DNA from: an uncultured bacterium
GTDB taxonomy: Bacteria; Omnitrophota; Omnitrophia; Omnitrophales; Abzuiibacteriaceae
Assembly: GCA_964387845.1 (NCBI GenBank)
Contig: CAYLXA010000002.1
Location: 1 to 64,000, forward strand
Direction of reading: 5' to 3'
Length of the DNA stretch: 64,000 bases
The notes under the pieces are model-generated. The model was not told where the DNA came from, did no database searches, and saw only the letters and a list, made by a program, of their open reading frames with translations. Of the stretch, positions 3,594-58,963 are shown piece by piece (positions within the stretch are counted from its first letter, which is position 1; each line of letters begins with the position of its first letter). The translations under genes were made by a program, and so were the position numbers.

Positions 3594-5080
3594 GCCAGTT
3601 AAGTTATAAAGAGAATGGGATTGTGAAAGCGCTTAGCGGATGTATTGCCAGCGTCATCAATCTGCAGAATTGCTTTCTAGGGCAATTGGTCAAATTTGGA
3701 TACGGCACAGAAGGAATTATCATGGGTTTTGATACACAATCAGCCCAAGTGCTGATTGTAAAAGAAAATGAGCCAATTACTCCCGGAAACGTAGTGGAGG
3801 CCACGCTAGAGCCCTTTAATATGCCAGTCGGCGACGGATATATAGGAAGGATCGTCAATCCTTTGGGTGAACTTCAGGACGGCCGAGAGGCAGTGAAGCC
3901 GGATAAATATATCCCGTATTTTAACGATGCTCCCGGAATTATGGACCGGGAAGGTTTGAGCGAAACGCTTGAAACCGGTATTAAACTTGTCGACAGCATG
4001 CTGCCGCTGGGCAAAGGCCAGCGGTCATTGATTTTAGGCGATAAAATGACCGGAAAAACGACCGTGCTGACGGACATTATGGTCAACCAAAAGGGCAAGG
4101 ATGTGATTTGTATTTACTGCGCAATCGGCAAACCGCGCTCATCCATGGCCCGCGTTGTTGATCTCTTTAAGGAAAAGGGCTGTTTTGATTACACAATCAT
4201 TCTAACTGCGCCCGCATCCAGCTCCCCGGGGCAGCAGTACCTAGCGCCTTATGCGGCGTGTTCGATCGGTGAGTATTTTATGCACAAAGGAAAACATGTT
4301 TTTGTCGGATTTGACGATTTTACAAAGCATGCATGGGCTTATCGCGAACTGTCTCTGCTGATGCAGGTGCCGCCAGGGCGCGATTCTTACCCGGGAGATA
4401 TTTTTTATTTGCACTCCCGCATGATCGAGCGGGCGGCCAAATTAAACAAACAACTGGGCGGCGGGTCCATGACGTTCATTCCCGTGGTCGAGCTTTTGGA
4501 GGGCGATTTGACAGCTTATGTTCCCACCAACCTGGTTTCAATGACAGACGGACAGATCTTTTTGAGCATGCCGCTTTTTAATGAAGGTTTCCGGCCTGCC
4601 GTCGACGTTGGTTTGTCCGTATCGCGCGTCGGCAGCCGCGTCCAATGGAAATCAACAAAAGCGGTGTCTAAGTCACTTCGTTTGGAGTTCATTCAATATA
4701 AAGAATTGCTCCGCATTAGCAAACTGCAAACAGGCGGACAATCGGACGAGGTTCGGGAAAAGCTTTCTCAAGGAAAAGTTTTACAAGCATTGCTAACCCA
4801 ACCAGCGAACAATCCCGTTCCGCTGGAAGTGCAAATCATGTGCTTCTTTGCAAAAGGGGAGAATTTGCTTAAGGATCTCGAAAAAGATCAAATCAACGAA
4901 CTGCAAACGGGGCTCTGGGATTACTCGAACAGCAATGATTCGGGCCTGATTAAATTAATTCGGGAGAAAAAGGATCTGACGGACGAAATTAAAACCCGTA
5001 TCCGAAATGTGATTAATGCCTATGTGAAGGAAATCAAGGCGCGGACGGTTGTGCCGGTTGATGAAGTCGAGGTTGGCTAG
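3590..5080 (+). CDS. atpA: F-type ATPase alpha subunit (divergent)
   Basis: Walker A GDKMTGKTT. Alpha signature PGRDSYPGDIFYLHSRMIERAAKL. Also TAYVPTNLVSMTDGQIF and VGLSVSRVGS. Confidence 0.85.
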   Translation: MSQLSYKENGIVKALSGCIASVINLQNCFLGQLVKFGYGTEGIIMGFDTQSAQVLIVKENEPITPGNVVEATLEPFNMPVGDGYIGRIVNPLGELQDGREAVKPDKYIPYFNDAPGIMDREGLSETLETGIKLVDSMLPLGKGQRSLILGDKMTGKTTVLTDIMVNQKGKDVICIYCAIGKPRSSMARVVDLFKEKGCFDYTIILTAPASSSPGQQYLAPYAACSIGEYFMHKGKHVFVGFDDFTKHAWAYRELSLLMQVPPGRDSYPGDIFYLHSRMIERAAKLNKQLGGGSMTFIPVVELLEGDLTAYVPTNLVSMTDGQIFLSMPLFNEGFRPAVDVGLSVSRVGSRVQWKSTKAVSKSLRLEFIQYKELLRISKLQTGGQSDEVREKLSQGKVLQALLTQPANNPVPLEVQIMCFFAKGENLLKDLEKDQINELQTGLWDYSNSNDSGLIKLIREKKDLTDEIKTRIRNVINAYVKEIKARTVVPVDEVEVG

Positions 5081-5092
5081 CGAGAGAGTGTT

Positions 5093-5314
5093 ATGCAGCA
5101 GACAATTATTTTAATCGGAATTATGGTGATCGCTGTGTTGGGTCCGGCCATCGTTATTGCAGTTGTTGGATTTGCGACCATTAAAGCGCTTGGCAGGAAC
5201 CCATCAGCTGCACCGAAGATATTTTTGGGAGTTATTTTAATGCTGGTTTTTGCCGAAGCCACATCAATCATTGCGCTTTTGGTCGTGTTTCAATTGTTTA
5301 GCGGCGGCCAATAG
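5093..5314 (+). CDS. atpE: F-type ATPase c subunit (proteolipid)
   Basis: 73-aa two-helix hairpin. Polar loop ALGRNP. Conserved carboxylate in the second helix (FAEATSI). Confidence 0.75.
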   Translation: MQQTIILIGIMVIAVLGPAIVIAVVGFATIKALGRNPSAAPKIFLGVILMLVFAEATSIIALLVVFQLFSGGQ

Positions 5315-5331
5315 AACTCTAAGGAGAGGGT

Positions 5332-6069
5332 ATGTTTATTATTCAATTTATATTACTTCAAGTAATTGTTTTCTCCGGCGTCATTTTTTTCTTAAAAAAA
5401 ATACTCTACGGTGATACGCAAAGCGCCATCAACCGCCTCAACCGAGAATACCAAGATTTGTTGAACAAACAGAAACAGCTTGCTCAGAAAGTTGAGGAGG
5501 CGGAAAAAGAGCTTGTTCTAAAAAAGGAAGAAGCGGTTCAGGTTAAAAATAAGATGACCACGCAGGCAATGGACGAAATTCGCCAACAAAAGGACGAAAC
5601 GGTCATGAAAGCCAAGCAGGAGGCTGAAGAGATTGTTGCAAAGGCAAAAGCAGCTGCGGACAAAAATTATCGGGAGATCGAGAAGCAAGTGAGGGCAAAG
5701 TTGACAGAAAACGCCGCAGACCTCCTGAGGCAATCGATTAGTGAGCGGATCATTAAAGCGACTCACACCGAATTAATTGCCGAATTTTTAGAAAGAGCAA
5801 AAAGCTTTGATCTGACCAATGTTGACCCAAGCATTCAGAAGTTAATGGTGAAAACAGCTCTTCCGCTTACAGCATCGGAAAAAGAAAAAATTAAAATGTT
5901 TGTGAATGAGCGATTGGGCCGGACGCTTGAGCTGGAAGAGGTTGAAGATAAAACACTTATTTCAGGCGTTGTGCTGATGTTTGGAACGCTGTTGATGGAC
6001 GGCAGTATGGTTAATTATATTAAGGAAGCAGAGCTGAAAATTAAACAAACCATCGAAAAGGAAACCTAA
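5332..6069 (+). CDS. ATPase b subunit fused to a delta (OSCP) C-terminal domain
   Basis: N-terminal TM helix plus long charged coiled coil (b-like). C-terminus LGRTLELEEVEDKTLISGVVLMFGTLLMDGSMVNYI resembles the delta-subunit C-terminal domain. Confidence 0.65.
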   Translation: MFIIQFILLQVIVFSGVIFFLKKILYGDTQSAINRLNREYQDLLNKQKQLAQKVEEAEKELVLKKEEAVQVKNKMTTQAMDEIRQQKDETVMKAKQEAEEIVAKAKAAADKNYREIEKQVRAKLTENAADLLRQSISERIIKATHTELIAEFLERAKSFDLTNVDPSIQKLMVKTALPLTASEKEKIKMFVNERLGRTLELEEVEDKTLISGVVLMFGTLLMDGSMVNYIKEAELKIKQTIEKET

Positions 6070-6075
6070 TCCGGC

Positions 6076-6975
6076 ATGGGTAAGGTAGCTCAGATCAAGG
6101 GCGATTTGGATGACGTCGAGGCGCTTCTTGAAATTATTACCATTTTAAAAGACGTTTCCACAAACCGGTTCTTTGCTTTTGCCCAGCAGAAAGACGATTT
6201 GAGCAAATTTCTGGAAATCTTTCTTATTTTCTTTGACATGGTTGCCGGCATTGAAACAACATGCCCGTTGGTACGGAATGAAAATCCGGCAACCGATATC
6301 GTGCTCATCACATCGGAGTCCAGTTTCATGTCACAAATGAATACCAGGGCCTGTAGTGCGGCGCTTGTAGAATTTCAAAAAAATCCAAGCGCAAGAATTG
6401 TTTGTGTGGGGCGCCGGGGTATCGACCGCTGCAAGCAGCTTGGAATGAAGGTGGATAAGTCTTATGAGAACGTGGATTTGGTCGGCCGTTATGAAACTTC
6501 GCTGATGATCCGGGATTATCTCATTGACCGCATCATGACCGGTACGACAGGAAAAGTGATGTGTATTTATATTTGGCCGAAAAGTTTCAGCGTTTTGAAA
6601 CCGCGCGTTGTGCGCTTGCTGCCCGCCACCGAGCTATTGAGCGATCAGGAAGAACAGGCGGCTGGAGAAGGGGAGCAAAAAGATGATAAACCAGTTCAGC
6701 AGGTGAGGGATGTGATTCAGGAGTCGGGAATTGACGGGATCATGAAAGTACTTGCCGACATCTGGGTTTCTTCGCGTCTTTTTGAAATTCTTTCGGATAC
6801 AAAATTGGCTGAAGCAGCTGCGCAATCGCAGCAGTTAGAATCGGCCATGGAAGGTCTTTCAAAAGAAAAGTCAGGATTGATGCTTGGTTTTAAAAAAGCG
6901 GTGCGCGGCGATTTGAATGCTGCGATGCGCGAAGTGTTTACGTCACAAAAAGCCATCAAATCAAGACGGGGATAA
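6076..6975 (+). CDS. atpG: F-type ATPase gamma subunit
   Basis: The C-terminal helix motif AEAAAQSQQLESAMEGLSKEKSGLMLGFKKAVRGDLNAAMREVFTSQ matches the gamma C-terminus. The central ITSE..FMSQMN region is also gamma-like. Confidence 0.7.
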   Translation: MGKVAQIKGDLDDVEALLEIITILKDVSTNRFFAFAQQKDDLSKFLEIFLIFFDMVAGIETTCPLVRNENPATDIVLITSESSFMSQMNTRACSAALVEFQKNPSARIVCVGRRGIDRCKQLGMKVDKSYENVDLVGRYETSLMIRDYLIDRIMTGTTGKVMCIYIWPKSFSVLKPRVVRLLPATELLSDQEEQAAGEGEQKDDKPVQQVRDVIQESGIDGIMKVLADIWVSSRLFEILSDTKLAEAAAQSQQLESAMEGLSKEKSGLMLGFKKAVRGDLNAAMREVFTSQKAIKSRRG

Positions 6976-6979
6976 ATAA

Positions 6980-8386
<1,407 letters not shown>

Positions 8387-8392
8387 GGATAC

Positions 8393-10579
8393 GTGGTGAT
8401 AATTAGTCCTGCAGAAAAAACATCATTTGATGCGCTGGTTAGTTCGGGCATCCTTCAGAAAGACGATCTAGAGAAGGTTGTCAAAGCCGCTGCGCACGAA
8501 AAGCTCTCGCTGTCTGAATTTGTCGTACGCTCCGGCCGGATCAAAGATGCCGAGCTTCCGAATGTTTATGCAAAGTACTTCAAGGTTCCTGCCATTCAAC
8601 TTAAATCGATCGAAACTGACCGTGCCGTTATCGAAAAGGTTCCCGTTAAGTTCTCCAATTATTATAAATTTTTCCCCGTTAAACTGCACAATCACAGGCT
8701 GACAATCGCCATTTCACAACCGATGGATGTCGGTACGCTGGATGAAATCCGGTTAGGGCTTGGGTTTGACATTGATTTCGTTTTCGCTTCAGGGCGTGAT
8801 ATCGAAGAAATGAGCAAGCGTTATTATGGATTAGGTGCCGAGACAGTTGACCGCATCATGATGCAAAAAAGCGGACAAGATTTACCCGCTTCCGCGCACA
8901 TGAGTGCCGCCGTTCAGGTTGAGGACATAGAAAAACTTGCAGAGACCGCATCAGTTGTGCAGCTCGTGAATCAAATTTTCCTGGATGCTTACCGAAAAGG
9001 CGCCAGCGATATTCATATCGAGCCTTACCGAGGCCGTGTTCGGCTGCGGTATAGGATTGACGGTGTTCTGCAGGAAGCGCGTGTGCCGCCCGATTTGATG
9101 CGGTTTTTTATGCCGATTTTGTCACGCATTAAAATCATGGCAAATCTTAATATCGTGGAACGCCGGTTGCCGCAAGATGGCAAGGCGCGCGTCAAGACAC
9201 AGGATCAAACCTTAGATTTACGGATTTCATCGATCCCCACACCGCTTGGCGAGAGCATGGTGGTCCGGATCCTTCCCAGTAAAATGATTCTGAGCTTGGA
9301 AGAACTTGGTTTTGAGGCGGATCATTTGAAGATATTTAAGGACCTGCTCAAGCGGCCCCATGGCGTGATTTTCCTGACAGGCCCGACCGGCAGCGGTAAA
9401 AGCACGACCTTATACTCTGGGTTCAGCTCAATGGATACGATGGTGAAGAAAGTTGTAACCATCGAAGACCCGATTGAGTATGAAATCGACGGAATCACAC
9501 AAGTGCAGGTTATGCCCGAGATCGGCCTCACATTTGCACGCGGTCTCCGGAGCATGCTTCGGCACGATCCGGACGTGATGATGGTCGGCGAAGTCCGGGA
9601 TTTGGAAACGGCCGATATTGCCATTCGGGCGGCTTTGACGGGGCATTTGATTTTATCGACATTGCACACCAACGACGCCGCGAGCGGAATTACGCGCCTG
9701 ATCGACATCGGAGCGCAGCCTTATCTGGTCGCTTCGAGCGTTATCGCTTTTATCGCGCAGCGGCTGGTTAGGGTGATTTGCCCCAACTGCAAGCAAGAGA
9801 ACAAATCTCTTTCGGAAGCAACCCTCAATCTCATCAAATCCGACCTAAATTTGACAGCGGACGATTCAGTTAAAACTTATATCGGAACCGGTTGTGATGA
9901 GTGTAATCAAACAGGATTTCGCGGGCGTGTCGCTGTGCACGAGATCATTCTGATCAATGAAGAAATCCGAAAATTGATCTACACAAAAGCATCGTCAGAG
10001 GAAATTAAGTTGAGGGCTCGCAGCCTCGGCATGAGGACGCTCAGGCAGGATGGATGGAAAAAGGTCTTGAGAGGCATTACGACTGCCAACGAAGTGATGG
10101 AAATTACGCCGGCCGATGAGATTGAAAACAGGGAATTGAAAGAGATGTTTCAAGAGGTTACGATTGCCCAGTCTCCGATCAAGCAGACCGATGAGTTTGT
10201 GGAGCGCAGGCGCTATCCCCGAGCGGTTGTTAAGTTTCCTTTGTCATTCCGCGTCATTGGCCAAGGATCTCCCGCTTCCAAAAGTGCATCGAGCACCGAA
10301 GAATGGGTGGAAGCCGAATCGGAGGATCTGAGTGCCAGCGGACTCATTTTTTCTAGCGCTCAAATCGCACAAATCGGCCAATTGCTCGAGTTTAAGCTAG
10401 AACTCCCCGATCGAAGTCAACCGGTCCAATGCATCGGACGCGTGCTCAGGGTTGAAGAGAGCGATCAAAATATATCCCGAAAGACAGTGGTGTCCTACCG
10501 TGTTTCAGTAACTTTTTTGTCGATTAATAGTGTCGACCGATCAAGAATTGAAGCTTTTTGCCAGGGCCGCGTGTCATGA
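8393..10579 (+). CDS. gspE: GspE/PilB-family secretion/pilus ATPase with a C-terminal PilZ domain
   Basis: Walker A GPTGSGKST. His box. Tetracysteine CPNC..CDEC. C-terminal extension with RRRYPR and DLSASG PilZ motifs. Confidence 0.85.
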   Translation: MVIISPAEKTSFDALVSSGILQKDDLEKVVKAAAHEKLSLSEFVVRSGRIKDAELPNVYAKYFKVPAIQLKSIETDRAVIEKVPVKFSNYYKFFPVKLHNHRLTIAISQPMDVGTLDEIRLGLGFDIDFVFASGRDIEEMSKRYYGLGAETVDRIMMQKSGQDLPASAHMSAAVQVEDIEKLAETASVVQLVNQIFLDAYRKGASDIHIEPYRGRVRLRYRIDGVLQEARVPPDLMRFFMPILSRIKIMANLNIVERRLPQDGKARVKTQDQTLDLRISSIPTPLGESMVVRILPSKMILSLEELGFEADHLKIFKDLLKRPHGVIFLTGPTGSGKSTTLYSGFSSMDTMVKKVVTIEDPIEYEIDGITQVQVMPEIGLTFARGLRSMLRHDPDVMMVGEVRDLETADIAIRAALTGHLILSTLHTNDAASGITRLIDIGAQPYLVASSVIAFIAQRLVRVICPNCKQENKSLSEATLNLIKSDLNLTADDSVKTYIGTGCDECNQTGFRGRVAVHEIILINEEIRKLIYTKASSEEIKLRARSLGMRTLRQDGWKKVLRGITTANEVMEITPADEIENRELKEMFQEVTIAQSPIKQTDEFVERRRYPRAVVKFPLSFRVIGQGSPASKSASSTEEWVEAESEDLSASGLIFSSAQIAQIGQLLEFKLELPDRSQPVQCIGRVLRVEESDQNISRKTVVSYRVSVTFLSINSVDRSRIEAFCQGRVS

Positions 10580-11793
10580 AAAAATTTGTTTATCAAGCCA
10601 AGAAAAAACCCGGTGAATTTGTGAATGGATCATTGATGGCCGATTCGCAAGATGAAGCTATCGACAAGATAAGTGCGCAGGGCTTATTTCCAATTGAAGT
10701 CAAAGAAGAGGTGGCTCAAGAAGTTCCCAGAACAGCGGTGCCGCAAAACTTTTCAAAACGCATACCCTCACGAGACTTGATCATGTTTTACCGGCAAATC
10801 GCCAAAATGACGCAATCCGGCATTCCAATTTTAAGAGCTATTGGTTTTATTTACGACCAATCTACGAAATCGCCCCTGAGACCCGTTTTAGAAAATGTGC
10901 AGACCATGATCGGCCAGGGCGAGAACTTTTCGGGCGCTCTTAGCCGGTACCCGCGCGTATTTTCATCCTTTGATTTAGCTATGATCGCAGCCGGAGAGAG
11001 TGTTGGGAAACTGAATGAATCGCTTTTGCAGCTTGCAAAACACAGGGCCGACCAGCAGGCGCTTTTGTCGCGCGTCCGCGGTGCGTTGGCTTATCCGGCA
11101 TTTATTCTCGTGATGGGTGTTTTGACCGTAAGCTTCATGTTGACGCATGTGATTCCGCAATTTTCACGCTTTTTCGCCGATCTCGGCCAAAATTTACCCA
11201 TTCCGACACAAATTTTGATCGCAATTAGCCAGTGGCTTCAGGCAAACTGGGTTGGGATTGTTGCTATATTGGTTTTTCTATTTTTTTTATTACAGCGGAT
11301 TTTAAAATCTGAGAGCGAAAGGCGGATTTTTGATCGCCTGGTCCTTAAGGTTCCGCAAGTTGGGAATTTGATCTTAAAAGTGGAGATTGCACGATTTAGC
11401 CGATCTCTTGAAATTTTAATCAAGAATAAGATGCAGGCGCTTCAAGCGGTCTCAATCGTGATTCCGATTGTTCAAAATCGCTCCATCCGAGATGAGTTGG
11501 AAAAAAGTCGCCAGCAAATGGAGCAGGGCGGTTATTTGAGCGAAGGCCTAGGGCAATCTGAGGTTTTTCCGAAATTTGTCCATTATCTCATCAGAACGGG
11601 CGAAGAGTCGGGGCGTTTGGATGAAGCGCTTGCCGAAATTGCGGATTGGTACGAATCGGAAATTGATGAAACCGTCAAAGTGACAACCAGTTTAATGGAG
11701 CCCCTTGTTATTTTAGTCGTCGGGTTTATTCTAGGTCTGATCGTTATAGCGGTTTTGATGCCGGTATTTAGCATGAACGCCGCGATTCAATAG
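10576..11793 (+). CDS. gspF: GspF/PilC inner-membrane platform protein
   Basis: GspF-type duplicated cytoplasmic domains and three TM segments. ATG overlaps the gspE stop (ATGA). Confidence 0.85.
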   Translation: MKKFVYQAKKKPGEFVNGSLMADSQDEAIDKISAQGLFPIEVKEEVAQEVPRTAVPQNFSKRIPSRDLIMFYRQIAKMTQSGIPILRAIGFIYDQSTKSPLRPVLENVQTMIGQGENFSGALSRYPRVFSSFDLAMIAAGESVGKLNESLLQLAKHRADQQALLSRVRGALAYPAFILVMGVLTVSFMLTHVIPQFSRFFADLGQNLPIPTQILIAISQWLQANWVGIVAILVFLFFLLQRILKSESERRIFDRLVLKVPQVGNLILKVEIARFSRSLEILIKNKMQALQAVSIVIPIVQNRSIRDELEKSRQQMEQGGYLSEGLGQSEVFPKFVHYLIRTGEESGRLDEALAEIADWYESEIDETVKVTTSLMEPLVILVVGFILGLIVIAVLMPVFSMNAAIQ

Positions 11794-11810: not shown

Positions 11811-12251
11811 ATGAAACATTATTTTCATCATCAAAAAATGTACCAGCGAGGGTTTTCACTTATCGAAATTCTGCTGGTTGTTGTTATCATCGGAACGCTT
11901 GCCGGCATGATGATTCCGCGGATTACGGGGCGTTCCGAACAGGCCCGCATGGCAGCTGCCAAAGCAGATGTTAACGTTAACATTCCAACGGCGCTAAAAC
12001 TTTACGAACTCGACAATGGGTTTTTTCCGACAACTGATCAGGGTTTGACCGCGCTGTTAAAAAGACCCGATACTCAACCGACACCACAAAACTGGAACGG
12101 GCCGTATCTAGAAAAAATGCCCATCGATCCTTGGGGCAGGCCGTATCATTACAGTTCGCCTGGGGTCAATCGGCCGCACGATTATGACTTATTTTCTTCC
12201 GGCAAAAACGCCGGAAAGGAGAAGGTGGATGATGATATCAAGAACTGGTAG
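11811..12251 (+). CDS. gspG: Major pseudopilin GspG
   Basis: Prepilin N-terminus QRGFSLIEILLVVVIIG. GspG hallmark DPWGRPYHY. Confidence 0.85.
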   Translation: MKHYFHHQKMYQRGFSLIEILLVVVIIGTLAGMMIPRITGRSEQARMAAAKADVNVNIPTALKLYELDNGFFPTTDQGLTALLKRPDTQPTPQNWNGPYLEKMPIDPWGRPYHYSSPGVNRPHDYDLFSSGKNAGKEKVDDDIKNW

Positions 12252-12660
12252 ACGGCGGGCTAGCGCACCTTGTTTAAAATCGCAAACCGGGGTAACTCTG
12301 GTTGAAACCTTGGCAGCCGTTGTCATTTTATCAATCGGGATTGTCGCGGTGTATCAACCGCTTCTACGGTCATTGACGGTGCTGCATGAAATGGATGCCC
12401 GGCTGGAAGCGGACCGGTTGGCATCAGATGAGCTTTGGTTGTTAAAAATGAACCAAACTCGTCTCCAGGCCCTCTCAAAGGCTTCCGAGCAAAGTCAGGC
12501 TGTTGGTGCCGAGCGTGCTTATGCGTACGCAATTGAATCAAAGCCCCTCACAGAAGATAAGGTTTTAAACATGGTTCGTTTAAGGATGGAGTGGAATATC
12601 TCAGGCCGTTTAAAAGGAATTACGCAAACCAGTTATGTTGAAATTCCAAACGCGAATTAA
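12229..12660 (+). CDS. Minor pseudopilin (GspH/I-like)
   Basis: Prepilin-type N-terminus GVTLVETLAAVVILSIG. About 143 aa. The ORF-track start at 12184 overlaps gspG, so the ATG at 12229 is preferred. Confidence 0.65.
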   Translation: MMISRTGRRRASAPCLKSQTGVTLVETLAAVVILSIGIVAVYQPLLRSLTVLHEMDARLEADRLASDELWLLKMNQTRLQALSKASEQSQAVGAERAYAYAIESKPLTEDKVLNMVRLRMEWNISGRLKGITQTSYVEIPNAN

Positions 12661-13258
12661 ACAAACCGCCGGTTTTACCCTAGTGGAAACCATGCTGGCG
12701 GTTCTTATTATTTCAATCGTGAGCGCAGCGCTCTATGGGATTTTTTCCAATGGTGTCCAGGTCTGGCATCGCGCTAGTACTCCGAAGCTAAACTACGAAA
12801 TCCATTTCTTTTTTGAGCAATTAGAAGCGGATCTCCGGAATCTTTTGCCGAACGATCAAACACCTTTCAAGGGACAAAACTATTCTTTTGAATTCTCCTC
12901 ACTGAGCCCGAGCGTAAAAATTGTTAATGCCGCAGAATCGCGCGGCGTGCCGGCCCGCCTTAAGTATGATTTTCACAGTTCAAAACACTCCGTCAGCCGA
13001 ATCGTGAGAGATTATTACAACATTCTGAATAAACAAACCAAGCCGTCGTCAGAGCGAAATTTGCTTCAGGGGATCAGCCGGTGTACGTTTCAATATTTTA
13101 AGAAAGTAAATGAATTACAGGCGCCTTCTTGGAATAATAGCTGGTCAGACCTCTGCGTGCCGAATGCGGTCAAAGCAAGTGTCGAATATATGGAAGCGGG
13201 GCGCCTGCGTGTATTGACCAAAGTAATTCCTATTCCGGCGGGCGGGTGTTTTGTATGA
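12635..13258 (+). CDS. Minor pseudopilin (GspJ-like)
   Basis: Prepilin-type N-terminus AGFTLVETMLAVLIISIV. 207 aa. Confidence 0.65.
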   Translation: MLKFQTRIKQTAGFTLVETMLAVLIISIVSAALYGIFSNGVQVWHRASTPKLNYEIHFFFEQLEADLRNLLPNDQTPFKGQNYSFEFSSLSPSVKIVNAAESRGVPARLKYDFHSSKHSVSRIVRDYYNILNKQTKPSSERNLLQGISRCTFQYFKKVNELQAPSWNNSWSDLCVPNAVKASVEYMEAGRLRVLTKVIPIPAGGCFV

Positions 13259-14760
13259 AACTCCCCGGAACGCCTGCAAGTGGTTTGGGGCTGAAAAAGG
13301 CATCTAAGTCCAGCGAGACCATTTTAATCGAGCTGAGCGACAGCCGTATCAAAATCGTATCTCTCAGCGAATCACAGGGCAATTTAACCGTAGAAAGCGT
13401 TGCGCAAAAATCGGTTGTCGGGCTGTCAGACCAAGATGTTGCGGCATTTATCGCGCAATATTACAAGAAGCAAAATATTAAATCGAAGCAACTGGTTTGC
13501 GCGATACCTTCCGGTTATTTGATTTCCAAAAATGTTGATATGCCTTCCAGTGATCCGGAGGAAATAAAAAAAATAATTGATTTGCAGGCGGGGCGTTATA
13601 CGCCGTATTCGCGCGAGGAAATCGTCATTGATTATCTCTCAAGCAGCAAGCCCGGTCAGCACTACACCAATGTTTTATTAATTATTGTCCATCGTAAAAA
13701 TATTGATCGGCTACTCAAAATCAGCGAACTTGCCGGTCTTGAAGTATCCAGGATTGTCTGCGCATCAGAAGCAATGGCGCTCATTTGCGACCAAGTCCGT
13801 CAGCGCATCCTGCAGAAGAACTCAGCCGTCACAGGGATCCATGTTGCTGAGGAACAGATCGATTTAATATTTTCTGACCAGGGCCAACTTGTTTTTGCGA
13901 GAAGTATTCCGGTCGGATTTCGTCACTTTTCAGCCGGAAAGGAATCGGCAGATGCCGATTTTGCAAAGGAGCTCGACCAATCTTTTTCGGCTTATCAAAG
14001 CCAGGGCATCGGCCAGCCCGTTGAATTGGTTGCTTTTTCTGGCCTTGCCAAACAGTTGGCATCGCTGGAGGGTACGATCAAAAGCTCCGTTCCTTATGCG
14101 TCTGCCAGTTCTCTTGTGTTTGAAATGATACCGGAGGAAAAAGAGTTTCACTTATCAGATGAAGCTTTGGCAGCTTGCAAAAATGATCCGGAGGTATCAT
14201 TTTTTTCGGTTATTGCTTCGGTTTGGATGCTTAAATCACTTAAGCTTGACTTCGTCCCGAAGGAAGTAAAGCTAAGAAAAAAAGTTCAAGAGGGGAGCCG
14301 AGATATTATTGCTTTAGGCGTTCTTTTGATGACCCTTATTTTGTTGATCTGTGTTTTCCTGGGCGTGCAGATTTATCTGAAAAAGGACATCATCAAGCGG
14401 CTTGAATCTATTAATGTGAAGACGTCTGACCAAGCCAAGACCCTCGAGCAGGCTTCCACCAAGAGCCGTGTTCTGCGTAATTTGCTGGATAGCCGCGGAA
14501 AGGGCCTTTATGTTTTTGAGAAAATATCAACGGTGATCGGTGAGGATATTTATTTGGCTAGTTTTAGTTTTGATAAAGACGACATTATTAAATTGGCGGG
14601 CACCGCAGATTCCATGTCGCGTGTTTTTGCATTTGTTACCGAATTGGAAGAATCTCAATATTTTAAGGATGTTAAAACCAATTCAACAAAATCCAGGCGC
14701 CAAGGCCAGCGAGAAGTGGCTGATTTTGAAATCGAGTGTACGTTTTCCGAAGGTATTTAA
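13255..14760 (+). CDS. PilM-PilN fusion / GspL-like assembly protein (cytoplasmic actin-like domain, one TM, periplasmic domain)
   Basis: N-terminal PilM-like region, then TM IIALGVLLMTLILLICVFLGV, then a PilN-like C-terminal domain. ATGA overlap with the upstream gene. Confidence 0.6.
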   Translation: MKLPGTPASGLGLKKASKSSETILIELSDSRIKIVSLSESQGNLTVESVAQKSVVGLSDQDVAAFIAQYYKKQNIKSKQLVCAIPSGYLISKNVDMPSSDPEEIKKIIDLQAGRYTPYSREEIVIDYLSSSKPGQHYTNVLLIIVHRKNIDRLLKISELAGLEVSRIVCASEAMALICDQVRQRILQKNSAVTGIHVAEEQIDLIFSDQGQLVFARSIPVGFRHFSAGKESADADFAKELDQSFSAYQSQGIGQPVELVAFSGLAKQLASLEGTIKSSVPYASASSLVFEMIPEEKEFHLSDEALAACKNDPEVSFFSVIASVWMLKSLKLDFVPKEVKLRKKVQEGSRDIIALGVLLMTLILLICVFLGVQIYLKKDIIKRLESINVKTSDQAKTLEQASTKSRVLRNLLDSRGKGLYVFEKISTVIGEDIYLASFSFDKDDIIKLAGTADSMSRVFAFVTELEESQYFKDVKTNSTKSRRQGQREVADFEIECTFSEGI

Positions 14761-14775
14761 CAAAAAGAAAAACAT

Positions 14776-15411
14776 ATGATTGATGCATTCTATGCAAAGT
14801 TAAAAGGAAGGGAACGAGTACTTTTCGTGGCGGCGGTAAGCTGTGTTGTTATGGTTTTGATGGACCGGCTTGTCATTGGCCCCATTTTGTCACAGATGAA
14901 GCTGATGGATGCCGAGATTTCCGCAAAAACACAGACAGTCCGCCGGAATATGCGAATCCTTTCATTTCGCGATAGTATTTTAAATGATTATTCGCGTTAC
15001 AGCGCCTACTTTGACTCGGTAAATCGAAAACAGGAAGAGATTATTTCCAGACTTCTCAAGGAAATCGAATCAATCGCTGCTCAGAAATCGATCACAATTG
15101 TTAATATTAAGCCCGGTGATGTGCAGGAAAATCCGGTCTTTCATGAGTATAAAACCACCTTGGAATTTTCAGGTAAGCTGTTGGACATACTCGGTTTTAT
15201 GAGCTTGTTGGAAGAATCTGACTATTTGTTCAGAATCACTGAATTTTCGATGACGCCGAAATCAAAGAATTCAGATGTTATGAAGTGCGTCCTCAATGTG
15301 ACCAGAATATTGATGACAGCCGAAAATGTGCCTTCACCGGCGGTAAGCGTGGCGCAGCCGTCTAATGCAGCCGCGCCCGGCGCTTTACCGTTTGGAGGGG
15401 AACCGGCGTGA
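14776..15411 (+). CDS. PilO/GspM-like bitopic assembly protein
   Basis: Single N-terminal TM, a coiled coil and a ferredoxin-like C-terminal region. Position follows the GspL-like gene. Confidence 0.5.
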   Translation: MIDAFYAKLKGRERVLFVAAVSCVVMVLMDRLVIGPILSQMKLMDAEISAKTQTVRRNMRILSFRDSILNDYSRYSAYFDSVNRKQEEIISRLLKEIESIAAQKSITIVNIKPGDVQENPVFHEYKTTLEFSGKLLDILGFMSLLEESDYLFRITEFSMTPKSKNSDVMKCVLNVTRILMTAENVPSPAVSVAQPSNAAAPGALPFGGEPA

Positions 15412-16115
15412 AAATCTTATCTTTTTTTTGCGCTTGGTTGCTTGCCTGGAATGCGGTCTCATGGTGTGAAACCGGCCAAAAACAGAGGGCGCAAGAATTG
15501 TACGGAGAGAGCATCGAACTTCTAAAACAGGAAAAGGTAAGTTTGGCGATTGATTTGTTGTTGGAATCGGTTGAGTTAGATCCTGGCTTTGCACCGTCCT
15601 GGAATGCGCTGGGTTTGGCGTATATGGGCAAGGACGGCTATGCGGCAGATGCCATCGACGCATTTACGCAGTCGCTTGAGCTGAGCCCTGCTCAACCGGA
15701 TGTCTATGCGAACTTAGGCATTGTGCATAGCAGCGACACAAAGGATTATGCTTTGGCAGAAGAATATTTGACTAAAGCGCTTGCGATGGATCCGGAAAAC
15801 CTGCGCGCCAACTTCGGAATGGGCTGGGTCAATTTATGGCACAAACAGGACGGTACAGGGGCGGTTAAATCCTTCAAAAAAGTGCTTAAAAAAGAACCTG
15901 AAAACTTTATGGCGCATTATGGCGTCGGTATGGCTTATTTGGCACAGGACAATCGGGCAATGGCGCTCAAATCAATTTCAATGCTGCGGAAGTTGCGCAA
16001 GAATGATTTGGCAATTCAGCTTGAGTCTCTGATTCAACCTCGCGAGGAAGCCGCAGGGCCTGACGCTTCATTTGGAGCTGATCAATCAAAGGATTTTAAC
16101 TTAGGAAGCTTTTGA
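15408..16115 (+). CDS. TPR-repeat exported protein (PilF/PilW-like pilus-biogenesis TPR protein)
   Basis: Signal peptide plus repeated W-LG-Y-A-P TPR-like units. GTG start overlaps the upstream stop. Confidence 0.6.
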   Translation: MKILSFFCAWLLAWNAVSWCETGQKQRAQELYGESIELLKQEKVSLAIDLLLESVELDPGFAPSWNALGLAYMGKDGYAADAIDAFTQSLELSPAQPDVYANLGIVHSSDTKDYALAEEYLTKALAMDPENLRANFGMGWVNLWHKQDGTGAVKSFKKVLKKEPENFMAHYGVGMAYLAQDNRAMALKSISMLRKLRKNDLAIQLESLIQPREEAAGPDASFGADQSKDFNLGSF

Positions 16116-16120
16116 TCCTG

Positions 16121-16468
16121 TTATTTTGAATCAATCGCTTTCTGGCACTGATACTCCAAAATACCCACGGTTTGCGCAAGCGCTTCGATGCGGGAATTTT
16201 GCTCATTGATATAAATGGTCAGGAATAGGGTTTGCAGCAACAGGAAAGCCAGCAAGCAAAAAAAAGCAAAGTTGCTTGGTAGTGTAAAACCCATCCAGCT
16301 TGAAATTTGAAAAAGCGCCTGGTCAACAATGGAGAAAAAGAGGGCAATAACTGACGTTCCAAGCCACAACACAGAAAATTTAAATGTCATTTTTTGCCGC
16401 CGGATTAAATTAATGACGACCAGCATAATCACTACGGAAACAAAAATTGCCACGGTTCGTGCTTGCAT
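16121..16468 (-). CDS. DUF2304-like small membrane protein (glycosyltransferase-associated)
   Basis: 115 aa with three TM helices. Sits immediately beside a Dpm1-like GT2, as is usual for this family. Confidence 0.5.
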   Translation of the reverse strand: MQARTVAIFVSVVIMLVVINLIRRQKMTFKFSVLWLGTSVIALFFSIVDQALFQISSWMGFTLPSNFAFFCLLAFLLLQTLFLTIYINEQNSRIEALAQTVGILEYQCQKAIDSK

Positions 16469-16480
16469 GAGATATGCTCC

Positions 16481-17188: not shown

Positions 17189-17253
17189 GCGATTATCTTA
17201 TCGTTGCGCAAGGCCAAGCTCAAGTCAATTCTATCAACGGAAAATTGAACCAC

Positions 17254-19800: not shown

Positions 19801-20123
19801 GGCAAGCAGGTTTAAAAATATATACGGTTTTTTTGGCGGCTTTTCTCGTTGCACAATCGGGAATTTTGCTAGCCGAAGATCAAATGGCTCAAGATAGCGG
19901 TATCCGAAAATATGGGGTTGTTCACAATATTGCCGATGACCGCAAAGTTGAAAAGGTGGGCGGTATTTACGAGCCTGAGGGATTGGATAAGTATTTGCAA
20001 AGGCGGTTAGACGATGTGACTGCCCGCTTGGATGAATTTTCAGAAAAGTTAAACAAGATTGACCAAAAACTAGAATCCTTGAGTTTGCAGTCGCGAACAG
20101 CGTCCGACGGCGATCATTCATGA
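19797..20123 (+). CDS. Small exported coiled-coil protein
   Basis: Signal peptide followed by a coiled coil. Both start and stop are coupled to neighbours by overlap. Confidence 0.4.
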   Translation: MRQAGLKIYTVFLAAFLVAQSGILLAEDQMAQDSGIRKYGVVHNIADDRKVEKVGGIYEPEGLDKYLQRRLDDVTARLDEFSEKLNKIDQKLESLSLQSRTASDGDHS

Positions 20124-21139
20124 ATCAAGCCCAGTTAAGCGGAAAAAGGGGTAGTATTTTCGTGCTTTGCATGTGGGTTTTGCTTTTACTGAGCATTTTT
20201 TCAATCTCAGTCAGTTATTCAGTTCGCCAAAGGATTAAGGTCGTGGAGCGGCTTGAGACGCGTCAACACTTAAGACGCATTGCCGAGTCAGGTATTCAAA
20301 AGGCAATTTACATTCTGAAATTAGACGACAACGGATATGACGGTTGGTCCGAAGGGTGGTACCAAAATGAAGATGAATTTAAAGACATTGCAATCAACGG
20401 CGGCCGGTTTTCGATTTTTCAAAAATCGTCAGGAGTTATCCGCTACGGAATCACCGATGAGGAGTCGAAAATCAATATCAACTTGGTTGGTTCTCCCGTT
20501 GTTTTTCGGCGTTTGTTTCATGACGGCCTGGGATTAGACGAAACAATATCGAATCAGCTGGCAGAATCCATTCTAGACTGGCGGGACGAAGATGACAATC
20601 CGCGCGGAGCCGGAGCGGAAAGCGCATATTATCAAACGCTAAATCCGCCGTATCGCGCCATGAATTCGGATTTTGCCTCGCTTGACGAACTTCTCTTCAT
20701 TAAAGGGGTCGATCAAGGCGTTTTTAGTCTAATCGCTCCTTATTTGTCTGTTGACAGCACAGGAAAAATCAATTTGAATACGGCGAGCACACCAGTTTTG
20801 CGCGCGATGGGTTTTAGCGAGTCTTTGGCAGGGAAGCTGGTAATGTTCAGATCCGGGCTGGATCAGATTCTTGGAACCAAAGACGATAATGCATTGCAAG
20901 ATTCGCAAGACATTGTCGCAGCGATCGATCAATTCGCATCGTTGACCGGTGATGAGAAAAACAGTCTGAAAGATTTTATAGAATCCGGGCTTTTTACGAT
21001 CAAATCATCATATTTTCAGATTCAAGCGAACGCGCGGCTGGGCAACCGCGGGTCTGAGTTATCGGTAGTCAGCGTGGCTGAAAAGAATGATTCGACGATC
21101 AATATCATAGCCTGGCGTGAAAGTTTTTATGTTGAATAA
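20120..21139 (+). CDS. gspK: Minor pseudopilin GspK
   Basis: Hydrophobic N-terminus GSIFVLCMWVLLLLSIF. GspK-type helix-hairpin-helix motifs KININLV and KINLNTAS. Confidence 0.7.
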   Translation: MNQAQLSGKRGSIFVLCMWVLLLLSIFSISVSYSVRQRIKVVERLETRQHLRRIAESGIQKAIYILKLDDNGYDGWSEGWYQNEDEFKDIAINGGRFSIFQKSSGVIRYGITDEESKININLVGSPVVFRRLFHDGLGLDETISNQLAESILDWRDEDDNPRGAGAESAYYQTLNPPYRAMNSDFASLDELLFIKGVDQGVFSLIAPYLSVDSTGKINLNTASTPVLRAMGFSESLAGKLVMFRSGLDQILGTKDDNALQDSQDIVAAIDQFASLTGDEKNSLKDFIESGLFTIKSSYFQIQANARLGNRGSELSVVSVAEKNDSTINIIAWRESFYVE

Positions 21140-58956: not shown

Positions 58957-58963
58957 CTAGGGA

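What the first reader, a model, noticed from the sequence alone, without database searches (positions are those of the whole stretch)
8393..10579. GspE/PilB secretion ATPase fused to a C-terminal PilZ c-di-GMP receptor domain
The complete GspE core ends at about residue 560. It has the Walker A box, the His box and the CPNC..CDEC zinc motif. A ~165-aa extension then carries both PilZ signature motifs in the correct spacing. RRRYPR (RxxxR) is followed about 28 residues later by DLSASG (DxSxxG). This would put pseudopilus or pilus assembly under direct c-di-GMP control through a fused receptor, rather than through the N-terminal MshEN-type site.
Basis: seen in the sequence. Interest (0 to 1): 0.7.

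Follow-up and report, generated by a model that had tools for sequence, protein, structure and literature searches.

The report
Pilus-motor ATPase with fused c-di-GMP sensor
This gene encodes the motor ATPase of a secretion/pilus-like machine with a PilZ c-di-GMP sensor domain fused to its tail, an arrangement shared by a whole clade of uncultured Omnitrophota bacteria whose ATPases have lost the usual N-terminal c-di-GMP site, so the signal input appears to have moved from one end of the protein to the other.

Summary
ORF 8393..10579 (+) encodes a 728-aa protein with an MshEN-fold N-domain, a complete GspE/PilB ATPase core, a disordered linker and a canonical PilZ domain (Pfam 44-48 bits against a cutoff of 22.5).

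- **PilZ site:** the predicted fold matches solved c-di-GMP-bound PilZ domains. R606, R610 and G650 are invariant in 116 homologues, and S647 is present in 114.
- **Not a one-off:** 62 of 81 related ATPases carry the extension, all with the PilZ motif pair. They come mostly from Omnitrophota-labelled genomes, including two single-cell genomes.
- **MshEN site:** none of the fused proteins keeps the MshEN c-di-GMP motif (0-1 of 4 key Gly/Gln residues). Of 19 unfused relatives, 15 keep at least 3.
- **One event:** a single tree split separates the two classes, so this is a clade-wide receptor swap.

The gene sits in a conserved cluster: giant gene, F-ATP synthase, E-PilZ, GspF, GspG, minor pseudopilins, PilMN, an STT3 glycosyltransferase, GspK. 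I found no paper describing this cis fusion, although databases already record the Pfam architecture.

It is a new variant of a known kind, and c-di-GMP binding remains untested.

The parts
8393..10579 (+). Whole gene: MshEN-like N-domain + GspE/PilB-type ATPase + linker + PilZ (728 aa, stop included)
   Evidence: ORF; domains; full-length AlphaFold model has mean pLDDT 89 and pTM 0.72.
8393..8836 (+). N-terminal MshEN-fold domain (residues 1-148); the scaffold is retained but the ligand site is degenerate
   Evidence: Pfam MshEN 49 bits. Hits the PilB/PilF/MshE/XpsE N-domains in the PDB, down to E 2.6e-14. Four N-terminal helices (6-18, 23-35, 40-46, 55-63) are predicted at pLDDT 87-96.
8420..8491 (+). 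Degenerate MshEN motif 1 (residues 10-33, TSFDALVSSGILQKDDLEKVVKAA; consensus RLGxxLLxxGLLxxxxLxxxLxxQ)
   Evidence: Register taken from the alignments to Thermus PilF and Geobacter PilB and from MAFFT. R becomes T, L becomes S, G becomes F and Q becomes A.
8507..8578 (+). Degenerate MshEN motif 2 (residues 39-62, SLSEFVVRSGRIKDAELPNVYAKY), 5 residues after motif 1 as in MshE
   Evidence: R becomes S, G becomes S and Q becomes Y. The motif definition is from PMC5013675.
8939..10099 (+). T2SSE (GspE/PilB) ATPase core, residues 183-569
   Evidence: Pfam 425 bits. Foldseek finds Geobacter PilB 5TSH (48% identity, TM 0.91-0.94), Thermus PilF, and Vibrio GspE/EpsE at 43-44%.
9380..9406 (+). Walker A, GPTGSGKST (residues 330-338)
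   Evidence: invariant in 116 homologues.
9779..9790 (+). First half of the tetracysteine zinc motif, CPNC (residues 463-466)
   Evidence: C463 and C466 are invariant.
9893..9904 (+). Second half of the tetracysteine zinc motif, CDEC (residues 501-504)
   Evidence: C501 and C504 are invariant.
10100..10201 (+). Flexible linker (residues 570-603), variable in length and sequence across the family
   Evidence: pLDDT is below 50 for residues 590-602 and for the corresponding region of the domain model. The stretch between residue 569 and R606, which this part spans almost entirely, is 27-84 aa across the family, median 43.
10202..10564 (+). PilZ domain (residues 604-724): beta-barrel plus C-terminal helix
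   Evidence: Pfam PF07238; AlphaFold model; the top 26 Foldseek hits against the PDB are all PilZ domains.
10208..10222 (+). RxxxR motif (R606-R610, RRYPR), preceded by R605
   Evidence: R606 and R610 are invariant in 116/116; position 605 is R or K in 104/116. Aligns to RRQYVR of 5VX6.
10325..10342 (+). [D/N]xSxxG motif (D645-G650, DLSASG)
   Evidence: D or N at 645 in 109/116, S647 in 114/116, G650 in 116/116. Aligns to NISAGG of 5VX6.
10576..11793 (+). GspF-type platform protein. Its ATG overlaps the ATPase stop codon (ATGA at 10576-10579), which suggests translational coupling
   Evidence: Sequence; Pfam T2SSF; NCBIfam GspF is the best hit at 355 bits, below the 424 cutoff.
11811..12251 (+). 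Major pseudopilin of GspG type
   Evidence: Pfam T2SSG + N_methyl. The NCBIfam GspG equivalog passes, 147.7 against a cutoff of 88.85.
12184..16115 (+). Rest of the assembly operon: two minor pseudopilins (one GspJ-like), a PilM-PilN fusion (504 aa), a PilO-like protein and a TPR protein
20120..21139 (+). GspK-type minor pseudopilin
   Evidence: Pfam T2SSK_1st; NCBIfam GspK 124.9 bits, just below the 130 cutoff.

Best explanation
The gene encodes the assembly (extension) ATPase of a T2SS-like type IV filament machine.

**Shown by sequence and structure prediction**
- The protein is a GspE/PilB-type hexameric-motor subunit. A canonical PilZ domain is tethered to its C-terminus by a disordered linker of about 30-40 residues.
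[quoted passage not shown] - This combination defines one clade of ATPases, found mostly in Omnitrophota.

**Inferred**
- c-di-GMP binds across the RxxxR loop and the [D/N]xSxxG strand. It probably binds as an intercalated dimer, because an extra Arg/Lys precedes RxxxR; that rule comes from my own knowledge of PP4397 versus VCA0042.
- Binding orders the linker and docks or releases the PilZ barrel against the motor (the N1/N2 domains or a neighbouring subunit), or against the PilM-PilN platform.
- In this way the second-messenger level gates pseudopilus or pilus polymerisation.
- The closest in-cis precedent is BcsA, where a C-terminal PilZ relieves autoinhibition on ligand binding. By that analogy, and because c-di-GMP promotes extension in MshE-type systems, activation is somewhat more likely than inhibition. 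I put this at roughly 60:40; it is inference only.
- The PilZ domain functionally replaces the ancestral MshEN site, so this is a receptor swap within one protein.
For: - **Architecture:** Pfam and NCBIfam domains; the full-length model at pLDDT 89, with low-confidence linkers only at 162-173, 590-602 and a PilZ loop at 628-635.
- **PilZ identity:** an HMM hit above the cutoff over the whole model. The family profile hits c-di-GMP-bound YpfA/MotI with both motifs in register. The top 26 Foldseek matches are all PilZ domains, prob 1.00, most solved with c-di-GMP.
- **Purifying selection on the ligand site:** R606, R610 and G650 are invariant, S647 is present in 114/116 and D/N645 in 109/116, while the domain as a whole is only 25-40% identical between members.
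- **Fusion is real:** 116 of the top 120 homologues carry PF07238. All 62 extended ATPases in independent assemblies have the motif pair, including two single-cell genomes, L020 and L044.
- **MshEN site lost:** 0 of 120 match the relaxed motif. Of 60 fused proteins, 52 have 0 of 4 key Gly/Gln residues and 8 have 1, whereas 15 of 19 unfused relatives have at least 3. The same motif is readily detected in stand-alone MshEN proteins and unfused ATPases of the same lineage but in 0 of 62 fused ATPases.
- **Functional context:** the ATPase stop overlaps the GspF start. The operon contains GspG, minor pseudopilins, PilMN, PilO-like and GspK and is conserved in relatives at about 50% identity.
- **Precedents:** MshEN-type c-di-GMP control of extension ATPases, and PilZ binding to the PilB N-domain in trans.
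Against: - No binding or activity data exist for any member.
- A PilZ fold alone does not guarantee binding; P. aeruginosa PilZ does not bind.
- No GGDEF, EAL or HD-GYP gene was found in the 64-kb window or in about 1 Mb of relatives' flanks. c-di-GMP turnover in these organisms therefore rests on the literature (GGDEF domains in Omnitrophota giant proteins).
- The fusion and the MshEN-site loss are separated from the unfused state by a single tree split. Their association is one evolutionary event, not repeated independent evidence.
- Most unfused relatives lack Arg at motif position 1, so their own binding competence is also unproven.
- In MshE and PilB2, c-di-GMP changes in-vitro ATPase rates little or not at all. 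The regulated step may therefore not be catalysis.
- The direction of regulation is unknown.
Confidence: 0.7

Rival explanations
1. c-di-GMP binds the fused PilZ, but the output is recruitment or localisation rather than control of the motor's catalysis. For example, it could be ligand-dependent docking of the ATPase onto the PilM-PilN/GspF platform, or capture of a partner such as the stand-alone MshEN proteins encoded next door in many relatives.
For: - In MshE and PilB2, c-di-GMP barely changes ATPase rates in vitro.
- In Xanthomonas, PilZ/FimX control the polar localisation of PilB.
- The conserved C-terminal helix (DRxRIExFC; F708, L709 and R716 are nearly invariant) looks like a partner surface.
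- 16 of 62 fused loci encode a small intact-motif MshEN protein directly upstream.
Against: - This window and its subclade have no stand-alone MshEN gene nearby, so such a partner cannot be general.
- Nothing in the sequence distinguishes this from allosteric control, and the two are not mutually exclusive.
Confidence: 0.25
2. The PilZ domain is a ligand-independent adaptor, like the type II PilZ proteins of Xanthomonas and Pseudomonas that bind PilB without binding c-di-GMP. It has simply become covalently attached.
For: - PilZ-PilB complexes that do not involve c-di-GMP binding by PilZ are well documented.
- A PilZ fold does not always predict binding.
Against: - Those adaptors lack the RxxxR loop and have a rearranged barrel. 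Here RxxxR and [D/N]xSxxG are invariant or nearly so over a clade whose PilZ domains share only 25-40% identity.
- The structural neighbours are the ligand-binding PilZ domains, not the Xanthomonas type. 3DSG and 4F48 reach only E 1.3-1.9 in the profile search, and 3PH1 ranks 50th in the fold search.
Confidence: 0.08
3. Both ends bind: the degenerate MshEN-fold N-domain still binds c-di-GMP or another nucleotide through a diverged site, so the protein is a dual receptor.
For: - The four-helix MshEN_N scaffold, its hydrophobic positions and the 5-residue spacer are all retained and confidently modelled.
- MshEN binding is largely hydrophobic.
- 8 of 60 fused proteins keep one of the four key residues.
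Against: - Arg9-equivalent, Gly and Gln contacts are replaced in both motifs. Mutating the conserved residues lowers affinity more than 10-fold in MshE, and R9 is required for binding.
- None of 120 homologues matches the relaxed motif.
Confidence: 0.07
4. The fusion is an artefact: a mis-assembly, a missed stop or frameshift, or a chimeric contig joining an ATPase gene to a separate pilZ gene.
For: None found.
Against: - The frame is uninterrupted for 2,187 nt.
- The same architecture is seen in more than 100 independent assemblies from NCBI, JGI, ENA and Logan.
- It is also seen in 58 species-representative genomes, including two single-cell genomes.
- The flanking gene order is conserved.
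Confidence: 0.01

Closest known systems
MshE-type c-di-GMP-binding extension ATPases (V. cholerae MshE, P. aeruginosa PA14_29490, M. xanthus PilB, C. perfringens PilB2, T. thermophilus PilF)
   Same: Same ATPase family and the same N-terminal MshEN fold. The second messenger is sensed directly by the motor protein of a type IV filament machine.
   Different: In those proteins the ligand is bound by two RLG...Q motifs in the N-domain. Here those contacts are gone and a PilZ domain is appended at the opposite end. None of the characterised proteins has a C-terminal extension; the ATPases compared in PMC4624772 were 469-562 aa.
PilB-PilZ-FimX complex of Xanthomonas citri (PDB 7LKM/7LKN/7LKO; PMC8389850)
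   Same: A PilZ-fold protein acts physically on a PilB-type motor and links it to c-di-GMP signalling. One PilZ binds per PilB subunit, which is what a fusion enforces.
   Different: There PilZ is a separate protein that lacks the binding motifs, and c-di-GMP is sensed by the EAL domain of FimX. Here PilZ is in cis, canonical, and has its ligand motifs intact, and no FimX-like gene is nearby.
BcsA cellulose synthase C-terminal PilZ (PDB 4P00/4HG6)
   Same: A canonical PilZ fused in cis to the C-terminus of the enzyme it regulates; it is among the structural matches of the domain. It offers a worked example of how ligand binding at RxxxR can release an enzyme (my own knowledge of the Morgan et al. 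2014 mechanism).
   Different: The output domain is a membrane glycosyltransferase, not a soluble hexameric AAA-like motor. No gating-loop equivalent is evident.
YcgR/MotI (YpfA) flagellar brake or clutch PilZ proteins
   Same: Closest solved PilZ domains by profile and by fold (5VX6, 5Y6G). They are c-di-GMP-dependent regulators of a motility motor.
   Different: They are stand-alone two-domain proteins (PilZN + PilZ) that act in trans on flagellar stator or rotor parts. Identity is only 15-18%.

Membership tests
PilZ domain (PF07238), canonical c-di-GMP-binding class | Match to the family HMM above the gathering threshold over most of the model | tested here: met
   44.2-47.8 bits against a cutoff of 22.5, covering model positions 1-101 of 102. 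116 of 120 homologues carry the precomputed hit.
PilZ domain (PF07238), canonical c-di-GMP-binding class | RxxxR motif in the flexible N-terminal loop | tested here: met
   R606 and R610 are present and invariant in 116/116. They align to RRQYVR of c-di-GMP-bound 5VX6.
PilZ domain (PF07238), canonical c-di-GMP-binding class | [D/N]xSxxG motif on the barrel | tested here: met
   DLSASG at 645-650. S647 is present in 114/116, G650 in 116/116 and D/N at 645 in 109/116. It aligns to NISAGG of 5VX6.
PilZ domain (PF07238), canonical c-di-GMP-binding class | Six-stranded beta-barrel followed by a C-terminal helix | tested here: met
   The AlphaFold model has six strands and helix 141-155 (domain numbering), with pLDDT above 90 in the barrel. 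The top 26 PDB fold matches are all PilZ domains.
PilZ domain (PF07238), canonical c-di-GMP-binding class | Measured binding of c-di-GMP | not testable with these tools
   Needs ITC, DRaCALA or MST on purified protein.
GspE/PilB-type assembly ATPase (PF00437 T2SSE) | T2SSE HMM plus Walker A, Asp box, Walker B and His box | tested here: met
   425 bits; motifs at 330, 358, 395 and 416; structural match to PilB, PilF and GspE.
GspE/PilB-type assembly ATPase (PF00437 T2SSE) | Tetracysteine zinc-binding motif typical of extension ATPases | tested here: met
   CPNC 463-466 and CDEC 501-504; all four Cys are invariant.
T2SS GspE proper (NCBIfam TIGR02533 equivalog) | Score above the curated equivalog cutoff | tested here: not met
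   559.2 bits against a cutoff of 630.25.
T4aP PilB proper (NCBIfam TIGR02538 equivalog) | Score above the curated equivalog cutoff | tested here: not met
   566.9 bits against a cutoff of 675.65. The core is nevertheless closest to Geobacter PilB, at 48% identity.
Classical type II secretion system | Operon with GspF, the major pseudopilin GspG and minor pseudopilins including GspK | tested here: met
   The GspG equivalog passes (147.7 against 88.85). GspF and GspK are the best hits just under their cutoffs, and a GspJ-like pilin is present.
Classical type II secretion system | Outer-membrane secretin GspD and prepilin peptidase GspO in the locus | tested here: not met
   No Secretin or Peptidase_A24 hit among the main (non-nested) window ORFs of 150 aa or more scanned with Pfam, nor within 10 kb in L001, L003 or L004. 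These genes may lie elsewhere in the genome.
MshEN c-di-GMP receptor domain (PF05157 with binding motifs) | MshEN fold: four-helix N-subdomain plus C-subdomain | tested here: met
   Pfam 49 bits; PDB hits to the PilB, PilF, MshE and XpsE N-domains; helices modelled at pLDDT 87-96.
MshEN c-di-GMP receptor domain (PF05157 with binding motifs) | [quoted passage not shown] | tested here: not met
   The spacing and hydrophobic positions are kept, but R/L-G/Q are replaced in both motifs. 0 of 120 homologues match the relaxed published motif. 52 of 60 fused proteins have 0 of 4 key residues.
Type II (non-binding) PilZ adaptors of Xanthomonas/Pseudomonas (XAC1133, PA2960) | Loss of the RxxxR loop and a rearranged, incomplete barrel; acts only as a protein adaptor | tested here: not met
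   RxxxR is present and invariant and the barrel is complete. These adaptors are only marginal matches.

The most novel reading that the evidence does not exclude
The PilZ-fused ATPase is the c-di-GMP checkpoint of a dedicated, apparently secretin-less type IV filament machine. This machine is genetically locked to an Omnitrophota giant gene and to the F-ATP synthase operon. The signal would be made locally by GGDEF domains carried on the giant protein. It would be read by two receptors, the cis PilZ and, in many lineages, a stand-alone MshEN protein encoded just upstream. Deployment of the giant surface protein, or attachment to prey or host, would then be switched by a private second-messenger circuit.
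Probability: 0.12. Interest if true: 0.8.

Novelty: new variant of a known kind. Interest (0 to 1): 0.55.

Why it matters
Two routes are described for coupling c-di-GMP to type IV filament motors. One is direct binding by the N-terminal MshEN domain. The other is indirect, through a non-binding PilZ plus FimX acting in trans.

This clade shows a third route: a ligand-competent PilZ fused in cis, with the MshEN site lost from the same polypeptide.

- **Evidence that PilZ acts on these motors.** The fusion is natural 'Rosetta-stone' evidence of this, and an example of one receptor replacing another within a single protein.
- **A handle for structural work.** The fusion fixes the stoichiometry at one PilZ per motor subunit. 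That could make it easier to work out how PilZ domains control hexameric motors, which is still unresolved for PilB-PilZ.
- **A lead into Omnitrophota biology.** The phylum is almost entirely uncultured and includes proposed predators or epibionts. The fusion points to c-di-GMP as a regulator of a conserved giant-gene-linked surface machine.
- **Annotation.** Current names for these proteins ('TadA', 'GspE', 'T2SS/T4P/T4SS family') do not mention the receptor domain.

Tried and rejected
- **phmmer of the C-terminal 169 aa against PDB sequences** found nothing. A family profile was needed.
- **The search for homologous proteins with the PilZ domain alone** returned no scored hit.
The full-length protein was used instead. 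That biases the survey towards close relatives, so the fusion's presence outside this clade was not tested.
- **The exhaustive representative search with the PilZ domain** was less informative than hoped. At 50% clustering the fusion family collapses into a few clusters. Four of the six top short hits I looked up lie on contigs under 3 kb and one has no contig on record, so these are probably gene fragments.
- **Regex scans for GGDEF, EAL and HD-GYP** in the window and in about 1 Mb of relatives' flanks gave only spurious hits.
- **My first ORF extractor** missed about 20 loci because its Walker A pattern was too strict. A Biopython tree run timed out. Both were redone.
- **Two apparent outliers** (L083 at '979 aa', L068 at '631 aa') were artefacts of reading through a stop codon and were corrected.
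- **A defence-system or phage origin** was not pursued, because nothing in the context suggests either.
- **Promoter and terminator scans** around the operon were no better than shuffled controls.
Full report
**1. The observation**

- A GAGGA Shine-Dalgarno-like sequence overlaps the stop codon of the upstream atpD gene. A second GTG at 8396 gives the 727-aa form held in public collections (P0001, 100% identical).
- Pfam finds T2SSE (residues 183-569, 425 bits), MshEN (63-148, 49 bits) and PilZ PF07238 (604-724, covering model positions 1-101 of 102). PilZ scores 44.2 bits in the whole protein and 47.8 bits on the isolated C-terminus, against a gathering cutoff of 22.5.
- Translation of the exact coordinates confirms Walker A GPTGSGKST (330-338), the Asp box, Walker B, the His box, CPNC (463-466), CDEC (501-504), RRYPR (606-610) and DLSASG (645-650).
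- The corrections are small. The core ends at about 569-572, the extension is about 157 aa, and the two PilZ motifs are 34 residues apart rather than about 28.

**2. Is the C-terminal domain a real, ligand-competent PilZ?**

- A single-sequence search of PDB sequences found nothing.
- A profile of 25 family C-termini hits the c-di-GMP-binding PilZ of B. subtilis YpfA/MotI (5VX6, E 6.8e-5). RRQYVR aligns on the family's RRxYxR and NISAGG on its D/NxSAxG.
- An AlphaFold model of residues 573-728, built from 120 sequences, has mean pLDDT 80.5. The barrel is above 90, and it shows six strands and a C-terminal helix.
- The 26 best Foldseek matches in the PDB are all PilZ domains, most solved with c-di-GMP: MotI, YcgR, Alg44, MrkH, BcsA, PP4397, MapZ, VCA0042.
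- Across 116 full-length homologues only 48-80% identical overall, whose PilZ domains (measured on the 120-sequence set) are mostly 25-40% identical to the window's, the ligand site is held fixed:
  - R606, R610 and G650 are invariant.
  - S647 and A648 are present in 114/116.
  - Position 645 is D or N in 109/116.
  - The residue before RxxxR is R or K in 104/116.
- The non-binding Xanthomonas/Pseudomonas type of PilZ lacks the RxxxR loop and is only a marginal match.

**3. The N-terminal domain**

- The protein has the MshEN fold. It hits the N-domains of Geobacter, Myxococcus and Thermus PilB/PilF, V. cholerae MshE (5HTL) and XpsE. Its four N-terminal helices are modelled at pLDDT 87-96.
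[quoted passage not shown] Arg9 is required for binding, Gly and Gln contact the ligand directly, and mutating any conserved hydrophobic residue lowers affinity more than 10-fold.
- In this protein the register and spacing are kept (residues 10-33 and 39-62), but the sequences read TSF...A and SLS...Y.
- None of the 120 nearest homologues matches even the relaxed search motif from that paper.

**4. Survey and the receptor swap**

- Of the 120 best hits among 5.8 billion proteins, 116 carry PF07238 + PF05157 + PF00437. The named ones are nearly all 'Candidatus Omnitrophica/Omnitrophota'.
- A scan of one genome per GTDB species returned 80 loci. With three metagenome loci and the window, 81 complete ATPases could be classified:
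  - 62 are extended (682-775 aa). All 62 have RxxxR...[D/N]x[S/G/C]xxG, and 58 have the strict Ser.
  - 19 are unextended (565-582 aa) and have no PilZ.
- I read the four key MshEN ligand residues (Gly3 and Gln24 of each motif) in alignment register:
  - Fused proteins (60 with a complete N-terminus): 52 have none and 8 have one.
  - Unfused proteins: 15 of 19 have at least three and 10 have all four.
- A stringent tandem-motif pattern finds the site in 9 of 19 unfused ATPases and in many small neighbouring proteins of the same lineage, but in 0 of 62 fused ATPases. So the motif is detectable in this lineage when it is present.
- The Fisher p-value (about 7e-13) must not be over-read. On a neighbour-joining tree of the ATPase core alone (residues 66-570), one bipartition separates all 60 fused from all 19 unfused sequences. 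The fusion and the loss of the site are therefore a single clade-level event. They have nonetheless been maintained while core identity fell to 51%.
- Submitter labels of the 58 fused species genomes are:
  - about 41 Omnitrophota/Omnitrophica;
  - 13 Planctomycetota-type or PVC;
  - 2 unnamed;
  - 1 Eisenbacteria;
  - 1 Deltaproteobacteria.
- The non-Omnitrophota labels may be placeholder or mis-binned names, which I could not check.
- Two of the fused genomes are single-cell genomes (L020, L044).

**5. Context**

- The ATPase stop overlaps the ATG of a GspF-type gene (ATGA).
- Downstream lie:
  - a GspG-type major pseudopilin (the equivalog passes);
  - two minor pseudopilins;
  - a PilM-PilN fusion;
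  - a PilO-like protein;
  - a TPR protein;
  - an STT3-family oligosaccharyltransferase;
  - GspK;
  - an S41 protease.
- Upstream is an F-type ATP synthase set: alpha, a b/delta fusion, gamma, and a beta subunit that passes the atpD equivalog. Before that come a conserved 474-aa protein of no known family and the 3' end of a giant gene.
- This whole order recurs in relatives about 50% identical, next to genes of 8,495 and 6,247 codons. AtpD is upstream in 54 of 62 fused loci.
- No secretin or prepilin peptidase is present among the window's main (non-nested) ORFs of 150 aa or more.
- Neither the GspE nor the PilB equivalog model reaches its cutoff. The core is structurally nearest to Geobacter PilB, at 48% identity, against 43-44% for the V. 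cholerae EpsE ATPase core (1P9R/1P9W) and 32-37% for the longer GspE entries.
- 'T2SS-like type IV filament system' is the honest label.

**6. Mechanism**

- **Shown:** the architecture, the intact PilZ site, the degenerate MshEN site, a disordered and length-variable linker (27-84 aa), and operon coupling.
- **Inferred:**
  - c-di-GMP binds the PilZ loop and barrel.
  - Binding orders the tether and changes how the barrel sits against the motor or platform.
  - This gates filament assembly.
- **Precedents:**
  - MshE-type ATPases, where c-di-GMP is needed for pilus extension.
  - PilZ bound one-to-one to the PilB N-domain in Xanthomonas.
  - The cis PilZ of BcsA (a structural match; the mechanism is from my own knowledge).
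- **Direction and target:** the direction of control and the regulated step are open. In-vitro ATPase effects of c-di-GMP are small in the known systems, so a recruitment or localisation output is a serious alternative.

**7. What is known**

- I found no description of this cis fusion in these sources:
  - the PilZ structural review;
  - a PilZ sequence-similarity-network study;
  - the MshEN paper;
  - the 2024 review of PilB cofactors;
  - the PilB-PilZ-FimX paper.
- Searches on fusion-type terms and on Omnitrophota/Omnitrophica with PilZ also found nothing.
- A preprint on Omnitrophota giant genes notes T2SS-like loci and separate pilZ genes near giant genes, and GGDEF domains inside giant proteins, but not this protein.
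- The architecture is visible in precomputed Pfam annotation, so it is 'in the databases' though apparently not discussed. The library searched excludes most subscription-journal papers, so a prior mention cannot be ruled out.

**8. Verdict**

The finding is a new variant of a known kind, c-di-GMP-sensing filament motors, and it is clade-wide rather than unique. Binding and regulatory output remain to be shown experimentally.

Noticed in passing
window 1-2093 (+): The first ORF is open to the left edge of the window. It is 39-52% identical over its whole length to the C-terminal end of an 8,495-aa giant protein in a relative (L001). It contains 13-residue LSKAGVNWDDLNK-type repeats. The window therefore starts inside the 3' end of an Omnitrophota giant gene.
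   Followed up: partly
window 2169-3593 (+): A 474-aa protein with no Pfam or NCBIfam hit. It is conserved (40-52% identity) at the same position, between the giant gene and atpA, in L001, L004, L006-L012 and L016. Function unknown.
   Followed up: partly
window 3590-8386 (+): F-type ATP synthase genes (alpha, a b/delta fusion, gamma, beta) run straight into the ATPase-PilZ gene, with only 6 nt between the atpD stop and the GTG. The atp-to-pseudopilus-operon junction is conserved: AtpD is upstream in 54 of 62 fused loci. In close relatives the gene order is unusual (alpha, epsilon, c, b/delta, gamma, beta). In the window, only about 250 nt separate alpha from b/delta.
   Followed up: partly
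window 16121-19800 (both strands): An STT3/PglB/AglB-family oligosaccharyltransferase (874 aa, + strand) sits inside the pseudopilin operon, between the TPR gene and GspK. A GT2 glycosyltransferase and a DUF2304 protein lie on the opposite strand just before it. The same arrangement is seen in L001, and partly in L004. It raises the possibility that the pseudopilins or secreted substrates are N-glycosylated.
   Followed up: no
L003:9009-10000; also L013, L014, L020, L021, L022, L024, L025, L026, L030, L031, L043, L047, L057, L058, L061 just upstream of the ATPase: In 16 of 62 fused loci (a few more by tblastn), one or two small stand-alone MshEN proteins (140-190 aa) are encoded immediately upstream of the PilZ-fused ATPase. 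They carry intact tandem [R/K]hGEIL...EQ / hLG...SEQ motifs. The window and its closest subclade have none nearby. This suggests a second c-di-GMP receptor acting in trans in many lineages.
   Followed up: partly
window 13246-14760 (+): PilM and PilN are fused into one 504-aa protein. This arrangement resembles GspL of classical T2SS (that resemblance is from my own knowledge). The fusion is conserved in L001, L003 and L004.
   Followed up: no
window 22800-57800: Most of the rest of the window is a large glycan-biosynthesis region:
- several GT2 glycosyltransferases;
- a pyruvyl transferase;
- epimerases and dehydratases;
- a DegT aminotransferase;
- a nucleotidyl transferase;
- a GHMP kinase;
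- a B12-radical SAM enzyme;
- two PMT-family mannosyltransferase-like membrane proteins;
- an asparagine synthase.

No secretin, prepilin peptidase or c-di-GMP turnover enzyme was found.
   Followed up: partly
window 49777-53001 (+): A 1,074-aa protein combines a spermine/spermidine synthase-like domain with a long C-terminal TPR array. Ornithine/arginine decarboxylase and saccharopine dehydrogenase-like genes lie nearby (57802-60415, minus strand), which hints at a polyamine module.
   Followed up: no
L057:12380-14569: A 729-aa protein downstream of a fused locus carries an intact tandem MshEN motif at residue 285, that is, internally. It may be a multi-MshEN PilF-like ATPase or another architecture.
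   Followed up: no
L007 and L009 (both from MAG JACPXL01): One Omnitrophota MAG holds two separate PilZ-fused ATPase genes (55-56% identical to the window protein) on different contigs, so the fused gene can be paralogous within a genome.
   Followed up: no
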